From a virus: a stretch of 64,000 bases of DNA. The notes under the pieces are model-generated. The model ran no database searches, was not told where the DNA came from, and saw nothing but the letters and a program-made list of their open reading frames with translations. Of the stretch, positions 7,916 to 37,325 are shown piece after piece; within the stretch, counting starts at the first letter, position 1; every line of letters begins with the position of its first letter. Both the position numbers and the translations under genes were made by a program. Where the stretch lies: the IMG/VR virus record IMGVR_UViG_3300045988_047070, one strand, 5' to 3'.

Positions 7916-8447
7916 TTGTATTTATATTTTCATACTTATGTTTAACCCAATAGTTGTAGGCGTATATACTTTAAACCTTCAACATTATGGTAACTAGAAC
8001 ATATTCCGTTGCCGGGGTAAGACTCCTCGTAAGCCAGCGGTTGTGGAGTGCTACGGCCACGTAATCAACAGGGCAAAACCAGGCTCATTTGAGCATTAAT
8101 CTAAAAAACTCAATAACTTTCCAAGACATTGAGGACACCAGTTTCTTACAAATAGGTTTAGGACTATCCTTGTAAATACTTAGCTACTACAACATTGATT
8201 TCTAGAATCATAACGCCAGAGTAGAGAACCCCTATTTGTAAGTTTTAGGTGTAAAATGCATATTATCTATTTTAACAAAAGAAGCCATAGCTTACTATAG
8301 ATAATGTTGTCAGTGCAACACTCTATAGCGGAAAAGTATATTAAACATATATGCTATGCCACGCTTCGGTACTTTGTTATGTTGGTTCAGCAATGTAACA
8401 TCACTGAAAGTTACTGTTGTGTGTAATATTAACGGGAGCCAACCCAA

Positions 8448-8506
8448 CCATGTAGTGATACTGTATCAAAGAACTGAAAAAATACAGGAAGGCTATCACT
8501 ACATGG
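8448..8506 (+). ncRNA. long interrupted hairpin (13 + 6 bp)
   Basis: CCATGTAGTGATA (8448-8460) pairs perfectly with TATCACTACATGG (8494-8506). The inner stem is CTGTAT/ATACAG. Confidence 0.5.
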
Positions 8507-8541
8507 TCTAATTTGATTATTAATCAATAAAATTATATATT

Positions 8542-10616: not shown

Positions 10617-10766
10617 TATGTGTACGTATCCAGTGTATGAAGTGATACACAACTTTCTTATCTAATTTAATATTCTTTTGGCATAATTTCCTCAGCTAAT
10701 TATTGCGAGTAAAAGTAATTAGTTCGCTACTATCTCATACTAATAGTGAGGGAAAGTATGTGGTAA

Positions 10767-10844
10767 TTCTGTGTAGTTTAAGTGTCTAACACATGGTAGA
10801 ATCCCCTGCTAAGGGCGAATGCAGGTTCGAATCCTGCCACAGAA
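10767..10844 (+). ncRNA. tRNA-shaped RNA without an anticodon loop, with a hairpin inserted in the D-loop
   Basis: Acceptor TTCTGTG/CACAGAA (7 bp). TA-GTTT-AA[GTGTCTAACAC]ATGGTA-GAAT D arm. CCCT-GCTA-AGGG arm. T arm GCAGG-TTCGAAT-CCTGC. Confidence 0.55.
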
Positions 10845-11126
10845 ACATTAAAAATTCATTGATGGTTTTATAGAGAGTTTAAGATTCTCCATTTTAATTT
10901 AACACAGCTACTATATACCTATTGTGAAATACGTATATAGTTTCCCTAGAGTAAAAGCAACCTCATCGTAGCTAACAACAATACTTCATGCGCGTTTGGT
11001 TAATATACAAAGTTAGCGGGTTCTAGGGTCTAGTAGGTTTAAATTGTCAGACTGAACGAATGTCATGACTACCGAAGCTAATAGCTTTTAAAAACAGTAA
11101 ATATTAACAATAAAAATATCAAATTT

Positions 11127-11291
11127 ATGAAAAAAGAAATCAAAAAAGCACAAGAAGCAGTATGGTATAATACTGACTGCAAGTTATTAACTAAAGAAGA
11201 GTACGAAGAGCTATGCAGATACAAAGCGTTATACTTAGACTTAAAAGGTTCCTTAGAAGGAATCGTAAAAGATTTCAAGCAAAGCGCATAA
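11127..11291 (+). CDS. small hypothetical protein (54 aa, below the track cutoff)
   Basis: Hand translation: MKKEIKKAQEAVWYNTDCKLLTKEEYEELCRYKALYLDLKGSLEGIVKDFKQSA. Confidence 0.4.
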   Translation: MKKEIKKAQEAVWYNTDCKLLTKEEYEELCRYKALYLDLKGSLEGIVKDFKQSA

Positions 11292-11423
11292 TACTTGAAC
11301 TTTTAGAAGGAATTGGTTGGGCTATATGGTTATTGATATTACTCATATTATCATGTGGGGATACATTAATCTATCTCTTATATTTAGCGATATCTGTACC
11401 AATATTCATTCAAAAAATAAAGT

Positions 11424-11804
11424 ATGACTGTAGAAGCAATGATCGTAACTTGTGTAATAGTATGCATAATACTGTTACTACGGAAAAGGAGGAAAGAGAA
11501 GATAAGGGCACAGATACTAAATGATCTATACATTATTGATAGAGATTGTCGTATTATCAAAGGCAATATCATTAATAGTGATTTTATTGGTATTCTAACT
11601 AATCTAGCATTTTTAAGAGATTCACTAAAGAAGGAATCATTAAATGATGTGATACCTAAAAGTTTGTTAACGGATATACAAGTTCTATTAAATACGAACG
11701 AAGAGGAGATTAGTTTAGAAGATTTTAGGACAAATGTAGTCAGAATGATTAACGTTGTTCTAATAAGGTTACAAGGTATCTATAAACTTATAATCTACTC
11801 TTAA
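11424..11804 (+). CDS. membrane-anchored hypothetical protein
   Basis: 126 aa with an N-terminal TM segment, IVTCVIVCIILLL. Confidence 0.55.
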   Translation: MTVEAMIVTCVIVCIILLLRKRRKEKIRAQILNDLYIIDRDCRIIKGNIINSDFIGILTNLAFLRDSLKKESLNDVIPKSLLTDIQVLLNTNEEEISLEDFRTNVVRMINVVLIRLQGIYKLIIYS

Positions 11805-11805
11805 T

Positions 11806-12195
11806 ATGGATAGAAGTCTTCCTCATTTCTTACAAAGAATCGGATACCATCCTTACGAAATAAGTCCAAAGGATAGGATGTTTTTTTCATTAAAAGATCC
11901 TGAATTTGTGTCAGCGTATGGACCAGTATTTGTCGAATGGTTCCCAAAGTATCTAGGACCATCTGTTCCTATATTAGAGGTTAACAGAAGTCGTAATATT
12001 ATATGGGGATTACACGAAGCGGATCACCATCCGTGCCTAATTTACCCTAGACCAAATATCTTGATAGAAGGTGTATCAGAAGAATACAAAATTACAAATA
12101 AATATTCTGATACAATGATGGATAGAATAACTGCAAAGTATTCTCCTGAAGAGATATTTAGAGCGATTAGGAGTAATTTAATACTAATACTATAA
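11806..12195 (+). CDS. hypothetical protein
   Basis: 129-aa ORF. Confidence 0.6.
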   Translation: MDRSLPHFLQRIGYHPYEISPKDRMFFSLKDPEFVSAYGPVFVEWFPKYLGPSVPILEVNRSRNIIWGLHEADHHPCLIYPRPNILIEGVSEEYKITNKYSDTMMDRITAKYSPEEIFRAIRSNLILIL

Positions 12196-12232
12196 ATTTA
12201 AATCTGTTAAATTTATTTTATTCAGTAACAGT

Positions 12233-12445
12233 AAGAAAGTAGTTCAATTTCTATGGGTTACATAGAGAAAAGGTAGAATAGTTTACAACGAATGGTACAT
12301 ATTTTATTTAATAAGCTTGCCTATAAAATAATATGGAACTCTATTAGATAGGTCTTTTGATCTCTATCTAGGCAGCTCTTGAAACTTAAATAAAAAATGT
12401 AGAGTAGATGTAAAAAGATATTAAGTTCGAATCTTAATCTTTCTT
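12233..12445 (+). ncRNA. composite structured RNA with tRNA-like ends and a ~135-nt internal expansion
   Basis: 5' AAGAAAG-TA-GTTC pairs with the 3' CTTTCTT after T arm TTAAG-TTCGAAT-CTTAA. D-loop hairpin CTATG-GGTTA-CATAG, then GGTA-GAAT. Internal hairpins at 12298-12335 and TAGATAG/CTATCTA. Confidence 0.45.
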
Positions 12446-12471
12446 ATTTTTTAACTAAAAACAATATCACA

Positions 12472-12822
12472 ATGATTAGACTAATTATCAAAAAAGGTAA
12501 TGCATGGTTAAGTGTATTTACTTTAGCACAGATCTTTACAAAATATTTGAAACTAACTCGCTATGATGCTTTAAAGCTTGCATATGCGACACTACATCAG
12601 GATGTCGTTGTCCAGAGTAGTACAAATGCAGGTCTATATTATCTTCATGTAGATTTACATCGAAAGAAGTTTAATGCTGAAATCAATGACGTTCATGATT
12701 TAGCAGCACAATTAGACCTATTGAAATACGCTCCTTTTCAATGTGGAATGCATACAAGAGGAGGAAAAGTGTTATGGAAAAGTAACCCAAAAGATGACAT
12801 CTATAAGGAAATAAGAACATAG
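12472..12822 (+). CDS. hypothetical protein
   Basis: 116-aa ORF. Confidence 0.6.
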   Translation: MIRLIIKKGNAWLSVFTLAQIFTKYLKLTRYDALKLAYATLHQDVVVQSSTNAGLYYLHVDLHRKKFNAEINDVHDLAAQLDLLKYAPFQCGMHTRGGKVLWKSNPKDDIYKEIRT

Positions 12823-13120
12823 TTGAATGTGTACTTTTCAAAGAACAACTACCTAAATACCGCTGTGAAGCTCTATTTAGTAAAAGACCTATGAAAAGTG
12901 AGTTGTCAATCCAGCGTATACTAAGTAGTAGGTCTTTTTAAAAGACTATTCTTAATTATAAGTATATGGAAAACTACGGTTATTATTCTAAAGAAATTAA
13001 TGAAGACTGTTTTGTAGTATACTATTTTAGTAGACAAGCCAGATCTGTCATTTATCAAACAAGCTCTTTATTAGGAGCCTTGAGTTAACTAACATTATTA
13101 ACTTTTAAACATTCAATCAA

Positions 13121-13621
13121 ATGAGTGAGAAAGGAGATGGCACCGTAGGTGGTGTCTGGAAGGGAGTAGTATTAGTGCTGCTCACAATTGTTACACTATT
13201 ACTTTTATGTATTGTGTATCAAGGGCTAAAAGGAGAGAATCCTCTTACGAAAGTAAAGGAATCTGTTGGTTTTAGCACTGAAACTGAGGTAGCAATACCT
13301 ACAGTTCAAGAGAGACTAAACGAGTTCAATGCTGAAGTAGAAGATACTAAGGCATATGATACTTATCTCTCATTGCCTGTAGTAATAGTAGAAGGAATCC
13401 TAAATAAATTAGGGCCTGATGCAGATTACAGAGCAATAGTTAACGAGTATTATACTAATAGATCCTATTGGATTAGTACTCAAGTGTCGAATCAAATTAA
13501 ACCTGTATTAACTGGTCCTGATGCAAAGAATGTTGAAAGGGTTGAGGTGAAAACAGTTTTAAAAGAAGAAACACCGCCAGGGAATGAAGTCTCTCTTACT
13601 CCAGCTGATTCTATAAAGTAG
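13121..13621 (+). CDS. membrane-anchored hypothetical protein
   Basis: 166 aa with TM segment VVLVLLTIVTLLLLCIV. Shares its leader with 9730-9903. Confidence 0.6.
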   Translation: MSEKGDGTVGGVWKGVVLVLLTIVTLLLLCIVYQGLKGENPLTKVKESVGFSTETEVAIPTVQERLNEFNAEVEDTKAYDTYLSLPVVIVEGILNKLGPDADYRAIVNEYYTNRSYWISTQVSNQIKPVLTGPDAKNVERVEVKTVLKEETPPGNEVSLTPADSIK

Positions 13622-13651
13622 AATTCTTTTTGGTTCAGGAGTATACTTTTT

Positions 13652-13685
13652 ATATGCATTGCCTGTGAAGGTAGTGCATATTTTT
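13652..13685 (+). terminator. intrinsic terminator
   Basis: ATATGCA...TGCATAT stem followed by TTTTT. Confidence 0.55.
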
Positions 13686-14072
13686 ACTATTAGATCATCA
13701 GAAAATGACAAGCATGTGGGGCGTAAGTAGTATTTTTATGCAGGAGAAGAAGAATGGCAATTGTTCTAATTAGTACTGATAATTGCAAATACTATGATCG
13801 TGCGGACGTTAAAATCATGCCGTTAATAAGAATTGTACTGGCAATACAATTCTGCTACAACGTAAAATATGTTATATAGCCGATTATAAGAAGTTTTATG
13901 TAAGAGTTTTTTAATATTTATTTTGCAAGCATAAAACTTTACGATGACACTTGTTATTAGTTGCTCATAGTACAATATGAGTTGTTGTTAATCAACAATC
14001 GTTCAATCAAAACCCTCTCCGTAGTTGTACATACGGAGACGTCATCAAATTGTTTAACTAAAAATTATCAAA

Positions 14073-14501
14073 ATGAACAGTAAGATTAATGGAGTAGCAG
14101 TTGTAATATTGCCTCCAGGACTTTCTAAAGAGGAAGTTCAAGTGCTATTTTCTAGCATATTGAGTAAGTTAGAAACTATTAATCCTGAGTACAAACAAAA
14201 TGGAGGATTTCTAACTATCTTAGAGCCTAACGACCTGTTTAGAGTCGTAAATCCTGTTAATGCTGAAATAGCAACATTAGCAGACAATTTGGTAGTTGAA
14301 TTCGGTGAACCTACAGATCCTGTGCATTTTGCGACAAAGTTCGTATGTGCTTACTATGGTCCTAAAGACTTAGTAAACCATGACGTTGTTACAACAATTG
14401 CATCGATCAAAGAAGGTTCCCCAGAATGGGCTTACTTCGAAAGGAGAAAGCTAAAGTTCCTTATTTTTCAATGTCGCAACATTTTGCAGAATACTTTATG
14501 A
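14073..14501 (+). CDS. hypothetical protein
   Basis: 142-aa ORF. Confidence 0.6.
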   Translation: MNSKINGVAVVILPPGLSKEEVQVLFSSILSKLETINPEYKQNGGFLTILEPNDLFRVVNPVNAEIATLADNLVVEFGEPTDPVHFATKFVCAYYGPKDLVNHDVVTTIASIKEGSPEWAYFERRKLKFLIFQCRNILQNTL

Positions 14502-14620
14502 GCAAGACAAAGAAAGATTCTAAGGATTCAAAGGCTATGCGGAAATACACTCCGCATAAGCCTAAGATGACTCCTTATAAAAGAGAGTCTAAAGCACAGA
14601 GATTTCGCGAGGATAGCTAG
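14498..14620 (+). CDS. highly basic 40-aa peptide (ATGA start/stop overlap)
   Basis: MSKTKKDSKDSKAMRKYTPHKPKMTPYKRESKAQRFREDS. The tracked longer ORF starts inside the upstream gene. Confidence 0.4.
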   Translation: MSKTKKDSKDSKAMRKYTPHKPKMTPYKRESKAQRFREDS

Positions 14621-14876
14621 TTACCGCCAGTTACTAGTCCTCAAGTCTATAATTCTTAAATTGTTAAGATATGGTGGTCATTCCCCTAAAGCATGTTAAA
14701 CCTAACGCCCTAAGCCCATAAACGGTATGTGAAGATGCATACTACGGGATTGTGTACTTGTACAAATGATAATCTCACAGGAGGTTATTAATTATAAGAA
14801 GGAGAAGAGGTTCCCTCTGAATAAGAAATAGGAATAAGAGGGCATGCTTATTATTTGAAACTAACACAATTGGGAT

Positions 14877-15179
14877 ATGGAAAAAACAAAAGTAAAACAA
14901 GTAATTAGAGAGGCATTAGCTAGAGAACCAGCTATAGAATGGTATCTTAAAAGTAAGAAAATATACGGTCGCTATATATCTTTGCTAGCAGATGTTATAC
15001 TCACACATAAAAGAGTTTTAGTATGGAATGAAAGTATGTGTGAACGTACTATTAAGAATATAATAACAGGATCTAGTCCTTTATATATTCCAATGTCATT
15101 TCAATATAGGGAACGTATAAGAATTATCTCTAATCATGCATTGAATAGAGATACAATCCTAGAACTTTATCAAAATTAA
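14877..15179 (+). CDS. hypothetical protein
   Basis: 100-aa ORF. Confidence 0.55.
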   Translation: MEKTKVKQVIREALAREPAIEWYLKSKKIYGRYISLLADVILTHKRVLVWNESMCERTIKNIITGSSPLYIPMSFQYRERIRIISNHALNRDTILELYQN

Positions 15180-16008: not shown

Positions 16009-16219
16009 ATTCACGATATAAGAACTGTGTCGTGTCTTATTAGGTTTATTGGAAACTATTAGGACGAGGGTTCGATTAAGATGGTCGAGTTTAAATTGGG
16101 TGAATTCAGGGAACGCTAAACAAAAATGCTCAGAAATGACATTTTTGCATGCCAATCCTGAGCTAAGCATGTAGTACACTACATGAAAGTGCAGAGACTA
16201 CTGGAGAACTAAAGTGTTC

Positions 16220-16744
16220 TTAATTACCAGCTAGAGCGCCCAACCCTTCATTAGAAGGTGAAGAGATAGTCCAAGATTCACGAAACTTTTTAAGTTTCTC
16301 CTCAGAAATGAGGTTCCTATGAACCATTCTGTGGCAATTAGGACATAAAGTTATTAAGTTTGTAATTTCATTTTTACCACCGTTAGATACAGGTATAATA
16401 TGATGAACATCACAAGAAGCTTTATTCCAACCGCATATTGCACAAGGTTGTAATAATAGAAAATTGTAAAATGATCTAGTAATAGCATTATTAGATTTCA
16501 TTCTTTTACGATAATCTTTTAATTTACAAGCATTCGTACAATACTTTGCTTTGGAAGATTGCGCTTCAAATTCCTGTTCACATACAATACATTTACATTT
16601 GTATTTCTTTCTATGTAAATTTCTGTATTTAGCAGCACATGAAAGTGAACAAAATTTTGCATTTCCTCTGTTTACCTCTCGTAAATCAGCTTGGAATTCA
16701 TTATTACAACATAAACATTCTTTTTTCATACAACCATAACGCAT
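16220..16744 (-). CDS. HNH endonuclease with two N-terminal Cys4 zinc-ribbon-like repeats
   Basis: CDVHHIIPVSNGGKNEITNLITLCPNCHRMVH. The only minus-strand gene inside the plus-strand block. Confidence 0.85.
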   Translation of the reverse strand: MRYGCMKKECLCCNNEFQADLREVNRGNAKFCSLSCAAKYRNLHRKKYKCKCIVCEQEFEAQSSKAKYCTNACKLKDYRKRMKSNNAITRSFYNFLLLQPCAICGWNKASCDVHHIIPVSNGGKNEITNLITLCPNCHRMVHRNLISEEKLKKFRESWTISSPSNEGLGALAGN

Positions 16745-17017
16745 ATGGAGATAGAATGTTCTAATAACTTAAAAGAATCTGTCCCTCCAGCTCCACGCTC
16801 ATAAGAGCTACAAGGGCAAAACAAAACTAGGGTTTTTGATCGTGTTAACCGTGCGCCAAGTTTTTAAATTTTAGAACGGTTAAAAGGGGCTGCATGGTTT
16901 TGACTAGTAGTGAAAGGTAAAATAGGTTCATTGTGTGTTTAAATGGCAATAATTTTGTCACAGACTATACTCAACTAGCAGTTGCGTAAAGTCACGTGCT
17001 AACTACGAAAGTGAGGG

Positions 17018-17082
17018 ATATCTATAGTTTAACGGTAGAACACTGATTATTCAGTAGTGTAGGTTCGAATCCTACTAGATAA
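17018..17082 (+). ncRNA. tRNA-shaped RNA without an anticodon loop
   Basis: ATATCTA-TA-GTTT-AACGGTA-GAAC-ACTGA-TTAT-TCAGT-AGT-GTAGG-TTCGAAT-CCTAC-TAGATAA. A1/A72 are mismatched and C73 follows. Confidence 0.6.
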
Positions 17083-18842: not shown

Positions 18843-18876
18843 GTTAGGGGTTCGACTCCCCTAACATTCACTAAAC
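18843..18876 (+). repeat. T-arm-like hairpin plus an ATTCACTAAA tail
   Basis: GTTAGGGG-TTCGACT-CCCCTAAC followed by ATTCACTAAAC, 15 nt upstream of the sigma gene. Confidence 0.5.
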
Positions 18877-28518: not shown

Positions 28519-28596
28519 GGAAGAGTAATAGCCTGATAAACTATACTAGGTACTATATCGATGCAATATAGGGCAGTTCGATTCTGCACTCTTCCA
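28519..28596 (+). ncRNA. tRNA-like element with an irregular core
   Basis: Perfect 7-bp acceptor GGAAGAG/CTCTTCC. TA-ATAG-CCTGATAAA-CTAT D arm. T arm GCAG-TTCGATT-CTGC. The central hairpin CTATAT-CGATGCA-ATATAG lacks U33 and R37. Confidence 0.4.
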
Positions 28597-37279: not shown

Positions 37280-37325
37280 GCTAGTTAATATATACTAGCA
37301 TGGGGGTTCGAATCCCCCTCTCACA
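37280..37325 (+). ncRNA. tRNA 3'-half-like element (arm plus T arm; no 5' acceptor strand found)
   Basis: GCTAGT-TAATATAT-ACTAGC, then GGGGG-TTCGAAT-CCCCC-TCTCACA. Confidence 0.3.

What the first reader, a model, noticed from the sequence alone, without database searches (positions are those of the whole stretch)
12233..12445. 213-nt structured RNA whose two ends form a tRNA acceptor, D and T scaffold
The 5' end AAGAAAG-TA-GTTC-AAT... and the 3' end TTAAG-TTCGAAT-CTTAA-(T)CTTTCTT form an acceptor stem, a D-arm start and a T arm. The D-loop carries hairpin CTATG-GGTTA-CATAG before GGTA-GAAT. About 135 nt are inserted where the anticodon and variable region should be. They include a long AU-rich hairpin (12298-12335) and TAGATAG-(12 nt)-CTATCTA. 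The insert is too short for a typical group I intron and has no ORF. It could be a tRNA gene with an unusual intron, or a tRNA-scaffolded RNA. It ends 26 nt before ORF 12472.
Basis: seen in the sequence. Interest (0 to 1): 0.62.

Follow-up and report, generated by a model that had tools for sequence, protein, structure and literature searches.

The report
Long-armed tRNA-shaped RNA in crAss-like phage
Between two early genes of a gut crAss-like phage lies a real, conserved 213-base RNA that keeps the top half of a tRNA but has a 135-base folded arm in place of the anticodon arm; it cannot decode, and most likely it is cut out by the host's tRNA-trimming enzymes, which would split the phage message.

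Summary
Window 12233-12445 (+) has a 7-bp acceptor stem, U8-A9, a D stem, a D-loop that keeps GG and carries an inserted hairpin, and a TTCGAAT T arm. A 135-nt arm stands where the anticodon arm should be.

It is not an intron-bearing tRNA, tmRNA, YrlA or any Rfam family. Across 27 distinct variants, 99% of the proposed pairs form. Compensatory changes occur in the T stem and in the long-range helices of the arm, so the insert is a continuous rod growing out of the tRNA core.

The element is orthologous in three Suoliviridae lineages, always between the same two genes and 25-28 nt before the second start codon. The stems differ completely but stay complementary. The arm is 18-31, about 81 or 135 nt.

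Most likely it is a non-decoding tRNA-like element that RNase P and RNase Z excise from the early polycistronic transcript. That would give ORF 12472 a short AU-rich leader and release a stable tRNA-scaffolded RNA. No RNA data could be obtained.

The proximal arm is conserved, including a loop that resembles a GAA/AGUA S-turn, which hints at a second job. The scan has already noted the short anticodon-less relatives in this genome and tRNA-shaped RNAs with replaced anticodon arms in other phages.

The parts
12233..12239 (+). Acceptor stem, 5' strand (AAGAAAG).
   Evidence: Pairs 7/7 with 12439-12445. Invariant in 27 variants. Orthologues carry different but complementary sequences: AGATACA/TGTATCT and GTAAATG/CATTTAC.
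12240..12279 (+). U8-A9 and an expanded D arm. D stem GTTC (12242-12245) pairs with GAAT (12276-12279). The 30-nt D-loop carries an inserted hairpin (12250-12266) and keeps GG (12272-12273).
   Evidence: the hairpin's 5 core pairs never vary and its closing pair is U-A or U.G. The cr1_1 clade has a hairpin at the same place with compensatory changes, ACACTAT/TAGTGT versus GCACT/AGTGC.
12281..12415 (+). 135-nt arm in place of the anticodon arm.
   Evidence: Long-range helices are supported by covariation. No Rfam match. No ORF.
12282..12289 (+). Arm helix P1, 5' strand. It pairs with 12407-12414.
   Evidence: pair 55:177 is AU in 24 variants and GC in 3. Pair 57:175 is CG in 17, UG in 8 and UA in 2. 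No mismatches.
12290..12293 (+). Near-invariant internal loop: GAAU (12290-12293) opposite AGUA (12403-12406). It resembles the sarcin-ricin / loop E S-turn consensus.
   Evidence: GAAU is invariant in all 27 variants, and AGUA changes only at its last base (A174 to G, one variant, L258), while neighbouring positions vary. A similar GAA/AGUA pair flanked by covarying helices is in the L177/L182 arm. The match to the S-turn consensus is from memory and was not tested by any tool.
12296..12311 (+). Arm helix P2, 5' strand. It pairs with 12386-12401 (15 pairs and one A.A mismatch).
   Evidence: pair 66:167 is CG in 15 variants, UA in 10 and UG in 2, with none broken. The blastn self-hit also shows this inverted repeat.
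12378..12385 (+). Nearly invariant 8-nt bulge CUUGAAAC on the 3' side of the arm.
   Evidence: Seven of its 8 positions are invariant in 27 variants; the last (C153) is A in three (L162, L015, L266). It is retained even in the deletion variants L160 and L248. No complementary target was found in the window.
12314..12377 (+). Distal domain: helix P3 (12314-12321 with 12371-12377) and two hairpins (12333-12344 and 12345-12370).
   Evidence: The small hairpin covaries (GC, GU and AU). The whole distal part is variable, and contigs L160 and L248 have lost 24 and 29 nt of it. It is therefore dispensable or decaying.
12420..12438 (+). T arm: 6-bp stem ATTAAG/CTTAAT and loop TTCGAAT.
   Evidence: pair 189:205 is CG in 15 variants and UA in 12, and pair 190:204 is UA in 23 and UG in 4. 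The sixth pair covaries between L177 and L182.
12439..12446 (+). Acceptor stem, 3' strand (CTTTCTT), and discriminator A. No CCA is encoded, and UUUUUU follows.
   Evidence: The predicted RNase Z site is after 12446.
12447..12471 (+). 25-nt AU-rich leader of ORF 12472-12822.
   Evidence: Orthologous elements end 27-28 nt before the homologous ORF. In Suoliviridae loci, 73% of 101 distinct tRNA-shaped elements end 15-60 nt before an ORF start, against 5.7% for random positions.

Best explanation
This is a non-decoding, tRNA-shaped element of the phage's early polycistronic transcript. It belongs to the same family as the three short anticodon-less tRNA-like elements in this window.

It keeps the parts of a tRNA that RNase P, RNase Z and the CCA-adding enzyme recognise: the acceptor/T-arm stack and the D-loop/T-loop elbow.

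Inferred mechanism:
1. Host RNase P cuts at 12232/12233.
2. RNase Z cuts after the discriminator at 12446.
3. This separates the ORF 11806 message from the ORF 12472 message.
4. ORF 12472 is left with a 25-nt unstructured AU-rich leader.
5. A stable RNA of about 214 nt is released.

The anticodon arm has become a free expansion site, grown here to a 135-nt rod. The structure, conservation, synteny and spacing to the ORF are shown. The cleavages and the stability of the released RNA are inferred.
For: - Context. The window is a crAss-like phage, 96% identical to cr10_1 (Suoliviridae).
- Core features. They match tRNA consensus positions, and the D-arm and T-loop sequences are shared with the elements at 10767, 17018 and 27533, which Rfam scores as tRNA.
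- Covariation. In 27 variants, 99.2% of cells pair, against 34-51% when partners are slid. Compensatory changes occur in the T stem and in arm helices P1 and P2.
- Strand. U.G intermediates are valid only on the + strand.
- Orthology. The element sits between homologues of the same two ORFs in three lineages. The stems are fully different yet complementary, and the arm is 135, about 81 or 18-31 nt.
- Model search. A covariance model of the target finds the L177 and L182 elements end to end (E = 1.4e-5 and 1.2e-4).
- Spacing. The 3' end lies 25-28 nt before the start codon in all three lineages. Family-wide, 73% of elements lie 15-60 nt upstream of an ORF, against 5.7% for random positions.
- Neighbours. 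Adjacent intergenic gaps hold a self-cleaving Hatchet ribozyme and a RAGATH-9 RNA, a class found near self-cleaving ribozymes, which ends 24 nt before its ORF. This suggests, but does not show, that the operon is processed at its gene boundaries.
- Terminators. No terminator-like site adjoins the element; sigma-70-like promoter matches there are no more frequent than in shuffled sequence, and that scan does not cover Bacteroidota-type promoters.
- Precedent. Plant mitochondrial t-elements are tRNA-like structures most likely cut by RNase P and Z, and they define mRNA ends (PMC1920247).
Against: - No RNA evidence.
- The acceptor plus T stack is 13 bp (7+6) instead of 12. Leader and trailer can extend the acceptor pairing (T12232-A12446, G.T, A-T), which could shift or hinder RNase P cleavage.
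- A plain processing signal does not need a 135-nt arm. Yet the proximal arm, its GAAU/AGUA loop and the CUUGAAAC bulge are nearly invariant, which suggests an additional function.
- The paralogue at 10767 lies 281 nt from the next ORF, so the spacing rule is not universal.
- The 101 elements include true tRNAs and related variants, so they are not independent.
- The folding z-score is only -1.36.
Confidence: 0.5

Rival explanations
1. The tRNA body is mainly a delivery and stabilising scaffold, and the arm is the working part. After excision, and perhaps CCA addition, the 135-nt arm binds a host or phage protein or RNA through its S-turn-like loop and the CUUGAAAC bulge, acting as a regulator or decoy. 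This overlaps with the best explanation and differs in what selection acts on.
For: - The proximal arm (P1, the GAAU/AGUA loop, P2) and the 8-nt bulge are retained in all 27 variants and are nearly invariant, including the two deletion variants.
- A GAA/AGUA loop with covarying flanks recurs in the otherwise unrelated 81-nt arm of L177/L182.
- The scan has noted tRNA-shaped phage RNAs with variable 'cargo' arms in many other genomes (AI notes, unchecked).
- T4 RNAC and RNAD are stable phage RNAs of unknown function (PMC9697503).
Against: - The cr1_1 clade does without a long arm at the same locus. Its arm is an 18-31-nt hairpin, in one case 7 bp with a tetraloop.
- The distal third of the arm is deleted in two contigs.
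- The S-turn sits at different distances from the core in the two lineages, and one flanking pair is mismatched in L182, so the recurrence could be chance.
- No complementary target for the bulge was found in the window.
Confidence: 0.25
2. The element is an uncut cis-acting 5'-UTR structure. It stays on the ORF 12472 mRNA, or on the 3' end of the ORF 11806 mRNA. There it would act as a stabiliser against exonucleases, as an insulator that keeps the start region unstructured, or as a translation enhancer.
For: - The distance to the start codon is fixed at 20-45 nt across paralogues and orthologues.
- Extended leader-trailer pairing could block RNase P.
- RAGATH-9 also ends 24 nt before its ORF.
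Against: - Conserving the elbow residues (GG, TTCGAAT, U8, A14) is unnecessary for a mere roadblock hairpin.
- These are exactly the determinants used by tRNA-processing enzymes.
Confidence: 0.12
3. It is a tRNA gene interrupted by a small self-splicing or enzyme-removed intron, which yields a decoding tRNA after splicing.
For: - The intact acceptor, D and T arms.
- A genuine group I intron is nearby at 16009-16292.
Against: - No intron family match, even at E<=10.
- ARAGORN intron mode finds nothing at default settings.
- 135 nt is below known group I sizes (from memory).
- The insert flanks give no U33 or 7-nt loop.
- The covarying helices run continuously from the core into the insert.
- Orthologues without the long insert still lack an anticodon loop.
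Confidence: 0.03
4. It is a YrlA-like Y RNA that tethers Ro60 (Rsr), or a miniature tmRNA.
For: - The tRNA-like domain plus a long stem.
- Bacteroides thetaiotaomicron, one of the search's control genomes (the host of this phage is not known), has a TROVE protein (controls).
- Related phage records carry ARAGORN 'tmRNA' annotations elsewhere in the early region.
Against: - No YrlA, Y RNA or tmRNA hit in Rfam at E<=10.
- ARAGORN tmRNA mode finds none.
- No TROVE gene in the cr10_1 genome.
- The RNA ends lie in the acceptor stem, whereas YrlA ends lie in the Ro-binding stem (from memory).
- The element has G3-C70, not the G3.U70 alanine identity, and it has no tag reading frame.
Confidence: 0.03
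5. It is a decaying tRNA pseudogene with no function.
For: - The arm length is unstable.
- Deletions occur in the distal arm.
Against: - The core is invariant apart from compensatory changes.
- The element is kept at the same site in three lineages whose flanking proteins are only 33-60% identical.
- 99% of pairs are maintained.
Confidence: 0.03

Closest known systems
Anticodon-less tRNA-like elements of the same phage (window 10767-10845, 17018-17083, 27533-27600)
   Same: - Same strand.
- Same U8-A9-G10 and GTTY D stem, GG in the D-loop, and TTCGAAT T-loop.
- A 7-bp acceptor stem.
- No anticodon loop.
- They lie between early genes.
- The 10767 copy also has a hairpin inserted in the D-loop.
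   Different: - The arm is 135 nt here, against 12-14 nt.
- The T stem is 6 bp, so the stack is 13 bp.
- The element falls below every Rfam tRNA threshold.
t-elements of plant mitochondria (Forner et al. 2007, PMC1920247), and the tRNA punctuation of mitochondrial transcripts
   Same: They are non-canonical tRNA-like structures with a conserved T arm. They lie at mRNA boundaries, and their ends coincide with mRNA 5' and 3' ends, most likely through RNase P and RNase Z.
   Different: - This element is in a phage of gut bacteria.
- It has a large structured arm.
- Cleavage has not been shown here.
Engineered 'tRNA scaffold' for recombinant RNA (Ponchon and Dardel), and mascRNA from MALAT1 (both from memory)
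   Same: An RNA of interest replaces the anticodon arm. The tRNA body ensures processing and stability.
   Different: - This is a natural phage element.
- The function of the cargo is unknown.
Phage T4 stable RNAs RNAC and RNAD (species 1 and 2)
   Same: They are phage-encoded stable RNAs of unknown function (PMC9697503). From memory, they are encoded with the tRNA cluster and have tRNA-like ends.
   Different: - No sequence relation was tested.
- The T4 RNAs lie in a tRNA cluster, not in front of protein genes.
YrlA-type bacterial Y RNAs
   Same: A tRNA-like module joined to a long protein-binding stem.
   Different: - The topology is permuted, since YrlA ends lie in the stem (from memory).
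- No Rfam hit.
- No Ro60 gene in the phage.

Membership tests
tRNA (Rfam RF00005) | 7-bp acceptor stem, D arm, and T arm with a T-Psi-C-type loop. | tested here: met
   The D-loop carries an inserted hairpin and the T stem is 6 bp.
tRNA (Rfam RF00005) | Anticodon stem with a 7-nt loop carrying U33 and an anticodon. | tested here: not met
   A 135-nt arm occupies the position, and no 7-nt loop can be formed from its flanks.
tRNA (Rfam RF00005) | Scores at or above the family's gathering threshold, or is called by ARAGORN. | tested here: not met
   No tRNA hit even at E<=10. ARAGORN makes no call.
tRNA with group I intron | The insert matches the group I intron model, and the exons rebuild an anticodon loop. 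| tested here: not met
   Orthologues with short arms have no anticodon loop.
tmRNA | G3.U70 alanine identity, a tag reading frame, and an Rfam or ARAGORN tmRNA call. | tested here: not met
   The element has G3-C70. ARAGORN -m finds none. No Rfam hit.
YrlA / Y RNA | Rfam family match and an associated Ro60 (TROVE) gene. | tested here: not met
   No match. No TROVE gene in the cr10_1 genome.
t-element-like tRNA-like processing signal | An acceptor/T-arm minihelix with a conserved T-loop and elbow, non-decoding, placed at a boundary between messages. | tested here: met
   The element starts 37 nt after the upstream stop codon, and its discriminator base lies 25 nt before the next start codon.
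t-element-like tRNA-like processing signal | RNA ends produced by RNase P and RNase Z at the element's borders. | not testable with these tools
Suoliviridae anticodon-less tRNA-like family (this genome) | A shared core sequence (UAGUUYAA...GGUAGAAY, GUUCGAAUC) and an orthologous position in related phages. | tested here: met
Sarcin-ricin / loop E S-turn motif (in the arm) | 5'-AGUA-3' opposite 5'-GAA-3', closed by a Watson-Crick pair. | tested here: inconclusive
   The sequence pattern is present and nearly invariant: C57-G175 closes GAA (58-60) opposite AGUA (171-174). The consensus was recalled from memory.

The most novel reading that the evidence does not exclude
CrAss-like phages may use the tRNA body as a natural expression and processing scaffold. 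Its anticodon-arm position would then be a swappable slot for functional RNA modules. Here the module would be a 135-nt arm with an S-turn-like protein-binding loop, released as a stable RNA that acts on a host or phage factor during early infection.
Probability: 0.28. Interest if true: 0.75.

Novelty: new variant of a known kind. Interest (0 to 1): 0.58.

Why it matters
If the cleavages occur, the early operon of an abundant family of human-gut phages would be punctuated by degenerate tRNAs, much as mitochondrial transcripts are, and alongside self-cleaving ribozymes. That would show how these phages turn long transcripts into translatable units in hosts that lack Shine-Dalgarno-driven initiation.

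The long-armed member shows that the anticodon-arm position tolerates, and keeps under selection, a large structured insert. That is the natural counterpart of the engineered tRNA scaffold.

It also matters for annotation. Rfam, ARAGORN and the GenBank record of cr10_1 all leave this element unannotated.

Tried and rejected
- Rfam at gathering and at E<=10, including on the element alone: no family.
- ARAGORN with introns and in tmRNA mode: nothing at default settings, and only noise at a 70% threshold.
- blastn of the element against the window: no paralogue of the arm.
- Distant blastn against phage records: only cr10_1.
- Homologues of ORF 12472 by protein search: only close relatives.
- PHROGs on the flanking ORFs: no family.
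- Antisense targets of the conserved bulge and loops in the window: none.
- Sigma-70 promoter and terminator scan: no terminator-like site next to the element, and promoter-like matches no more frequent than in shuffled sequence.
- Literature searches for crAss-like, tRNA-like, Hatchet or RAGATH: no description of this element in the held library.

Full report
**Context.** The window is a crAss-like phage. Bases 11000-15000 are 96% identical to uncultured phage cr10_1 (MT774382; Crassvirales, Suoliviridae, Canhaevirus), whose record annotates nothing at this position. The element lies in a run of small + strand ORFs of unknown function. The gaps between these ORFs hold structured RNAs:
- a Hatchet ribozyme (13694-13820);
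- RAGATH-9 (14674-14852);
- a group I intron (16009-16292);
- three matches to the Rfam tRNA model (10767, 17018, 27533), whose anticodon arm is a short stem with a tetraloop.

**The observation.** Counting the element from 12233 as position 1:

| Feature | Positions |
|---|---|
| Acceptor stem | 1-7 / 207-213 |
| U8, A9 | 8-9 |
| D stem | 10-13 / 44-47 |
| D-loop (30 nt) | 14-43 |
| Hairpin inside the D-loop | 18-34 |
| GG of the D-loop | 40-41 |
| Position-26 equivalent | A48 |
| Arm (135 nt) | 49-183 |
| Variable region (4 nt) | 184-187 |
| T stem | 188-193 / 201-206 |
| T-loop UUCGAAU | 194-200 |
| Discriminator | A214 |

No ORF of 40 aa or more overlaps the element.

A simple scan looked for a TTCRANY loop on a 5-bp stem, followed by a 7-mer that pairs with an upstream 7-mer followed by T.G. 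It finds 5 such scaffolds on the + strand and none on the - strand. In 200 Markov simulations, 0.35 are expected for both strands together. The single-sequence folding energy is not unusual (z = -1.36).

**Relatives within the clade.** Relatives came from an IMG/VR pattern search, loci anchored on the flanking proteins, contigs that encode diverged copies of ORF 12472, and one metagenome scan. Together they gave 27 distinct variants, 81-99.5% identical.

On this alignment my structure has 99.2% of cells paired. With the 3' partners slid by 1-3 columns, only 34-51% pair. The structure was derived from these sequences, so that contrast is partly built in. The informative part is the covariation:

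| Pair | Location | Pair types (number of variants) |
|---|---|---|
| 189:205 | T stem | C-G 15, U-A 12 |
| 190:204 | T stem | U-A 23, U.G 4 |
| 55:177 | arm P1 | A-U 24, G-C 3 |
| 57:175 | arm P1 | C-G 17, U.G 8, U-A 2 |
| 61:170 | arm | U.G 26, U-A 1 |
| 66:167 | arm P2 | C-G 15, U-A 10, U.G 2 |

None of these pairs has a mismatched cell. The U.G intermediates fix the strand as +.

The arm is therefore a continuous, selected rod that starts where the anticodon stem would start. From the core outward it consists of:
- helix P1;
- a nearly invariant internal loop, G58-A-A-U61 opposite A171-G-U-A174;
- helix P2 (64-79 / 154-169);
- a nearly invariant 8-nt bulge, CUUGAAAC (146-153; only its last base varies, in three variants);
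- helix P3;
- two distal hairpins.

The distal part is the most variable, and two contigs (L160 and L248) have lost 24 and 29 nt of it.

Most of its pairs are compatible with the alignment, but its closing pair is broken in 4 of 14 variants. I prefer P2, without excluding a second conformation.

**Orthologues in other lineages.** I anchored on the phage sigma factor and then on the two flanking ORFs. The same gene order (an ORF 11806 homologue, then a tRNA-shaped element, then an ORF 12472 homologue) appears in three lineages:

| Lineage | Element | Acceptor | D stem | T stem | Arm |
|---|---|---|---|---|---|
| Target clade | 213 nt | AAGAAAG/CTTTCTT | GTTC/GAAT | ATTAAG/CTTAAT (6 bp) | 135 nt |
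| L177 / L182 (flanking proteins 59% and 42-44% identical) | 143 / 142 nt | AGATACA/TGTATCT | GTTT/AAAC | ACAAAG/CTTTGT in L177, GTAAAG/CTTTAC in L182 (6 bp) | about 81 nt |
| cr1_1 clade (Culoivirus; proteins 51% and 33% identical) | 86-99 nt | GTAAATG/CATTTAC | GTTT/GAAA | AAGAG/CTCTT (5 bp) | 18-31 nt hairpin |

The two T stems of L177 and L182 differ by two compensatory pairs, one of which is the sixth pair. The cr1_1 clade has a D-loop hairpin, and both that hairpin and its short arm show compensatory changes within the clade.

In short, every stem of the core differs between lineages yet stays complementary, and the T-loop stays TTCGARU. A covariance model built from the target clade recovers the L177 and L182 elements end to end as the best foreign hits (E = 1.4e-5 and 1.2e-4).

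**What it is not.**
- Not any Rfam family, even at E<=10 with only the element as input.
- Not an ARAGORN tRNA, intron-bearing tRNA or tmRNA at default settings.
- Not an intron. The helices covary across the supposed exon-intron borders, the flanks cannot give a U33-containing 7-nt loop, and the short-armed orthologues have plain hairpins, in one case 7 bp with a tetraloop.
- Not tmRNA-like. Pair 3:70 is G-C, and there is no tag reading frame.
- Not YrlA-like. There is no family hit, the RNA ends lie in the acceptor stem, and the cr10_1 genome has no TROVE/Ro60 gene.

**How it most likely works.** The element keeps the acceptor/T-arm stack and the D-loop/T-loop elbow (GG with UUCGAAU). From established knowledge of tRNA maturation, these are what RNase P, RNase Z and the CCA-adding enzyme read. 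No CCA is encoded, which fits RNase Z.

In all three lineages the element ends 25-28 nt before the start codon of the same gene. The paralogues at 17018 and 27533 end 20 and 45 nt before their ORFs. Among 101 distinct tRNA-shaped elements in sigma-anchored Suoliviridae loci, 73% end 15-60 nt upstream of an ATG ORF of at least 50 aa. For random positions the figure is 5.7%. These elements include true tRNAs and are related to one another, so the counts are not independent.

I infer that the host's tRNA-processing enzymes excise the element. That would cut the early transcript between ORF 11806 and ORF 12472, and leave the downstream message with a short AU-rich leader. The Hatchet ribozyme, which is self-cleaving, lies in a neighbouring gap, as does the RAGATH-9 RNA. 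The closest documented precedent is the plant mitochondrial t-element (PMC1920247).

**The arm.** A processing signal does not need 135 nt, and the cr1_1 clade manages with a hairpin. So the arm is either a tolerated expansion or a second function.

In favour of a second function:
- The proximal rod and the CUUGAAAC bulge are nearly invariant, even in the deletion variants.
- The GAAU/AGUA internal loop, closed by C57-G175, matches the sarcin-ricin / loop E S-turn consensus as I recall it.
- A GAA/AGUA loop with covarying flanking helices (UGG/CCG against CAU/CUG, and UAC/GUU against UAU/AUU) recurs in the otherwise dissimilar L177/L182 arm.

Against it:
- That loop sits at a different distance from the core in the two lineages.
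- One flanking pair is mismatched in L182.
- I found the motif after the fact, so chance recurrence is plausible.
- No antisense target of the bulge exists in the window.

**Oddities that could matter.**
- The acceptor plus T stack is 13 bp in the two long-armed lineages.
- The leader and trailer can extend the acceptor helix (T12232-A12446, then G.T, then A-T).
- Either feature could shift or damp RNase P cleavage.

**Verdict.** The element is real, selected and orthologous across genera. It is a long-armed member of the phage's family of non-decoding tRNA-like elements. Rfam has no family for it, the cr10_1 record does not annotate it, and the held literature does not describe it.

The scan had already noted the short members in this genome and tRNA-shaped RNAs with replaced anticodon arms in about 38 other genomes. 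Those are unchecked AI notes that I used only as leads. I tested the YrlA/Ro60 lead here and it failed.

I class it as a new variant of a known kind (tRNA-like processing elements and tRNA-scaffolded RNAs), of moderate to high interest.

Noticed in passing
window 16870-17017 (also L183 7930-8057, L225 and L231 about 8350-8530): A conserved stretch of about 150 nt lies directly upstream of the 17018 tRNA-like element. It begins GGGGCTGCATGGTTTTGAC, which resembles a tmRNA 5' end. Related phage records annotate ARAGORN 'tmRNA' features in the same area. It may be part of a larger composite RNA.
   Followed up: partly
window 16009-16744: The group I intron match (16009-16292, +) overlaps the end of a - strand ORF (16220-16744) that is an HNH endonuclease (PHROG 1271, E = 2.5e-23). 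No obvious host gene for the intron is annotated, and the cr10_1 record calls this stretch 'tmRNA'.
   Followed up: partly
window 18846-18862 and 37302-37318: Two T-arm-only motifs (AGGGG-TTCGACT-CCCCT and GGGGG-TTCGAAT-CCCCC) have no matching acceptor 5' strand within 3 kb. The first sits 22 nt before the sigma-factor ORF, and the same motif precedes sigma in about 20 related contigs.
   Followed up: partly
window 10680-10766 and 16960-17017: The tRNA-like elements at 10767 and 17018 are both preceded by a shared motif: CTCA, a stem, TTGCG(A)GTAAA(A)G, the stem's partner, then GTGAGGG. It matches no Rfam family.
   Followed up: no
L177 3738-3848 and L182 3680-3790: In the sister lineage, a further 111-nt tRNA-shaped element (acceptor CCGCGAA/TTCGCGG, with an AU-rich arm) sits 23 nt upstream of the ORF 11806 homologue. 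The window has no gap at that position, so these elements are gained and lost.
   Followed up: no
window 14674-14852: RAGATH-9 ends 24 nt before ORF 14877, much the same spacing as the tRNA-like elements have to their ORFs.
   Followed up: no
window 28519-28596: A weak hit of the element's covariance model (E = 0.47) suggests another tRNA-shaped element on the + strand.
   Followed up: no
L041 8001-8302 (cr1_1): The cr1_1 homologue of ORF 12472 is unannotated in GenBank and matches in two tblastn pieces. It may be frameshifted or misassembled there.
   Followed up: no
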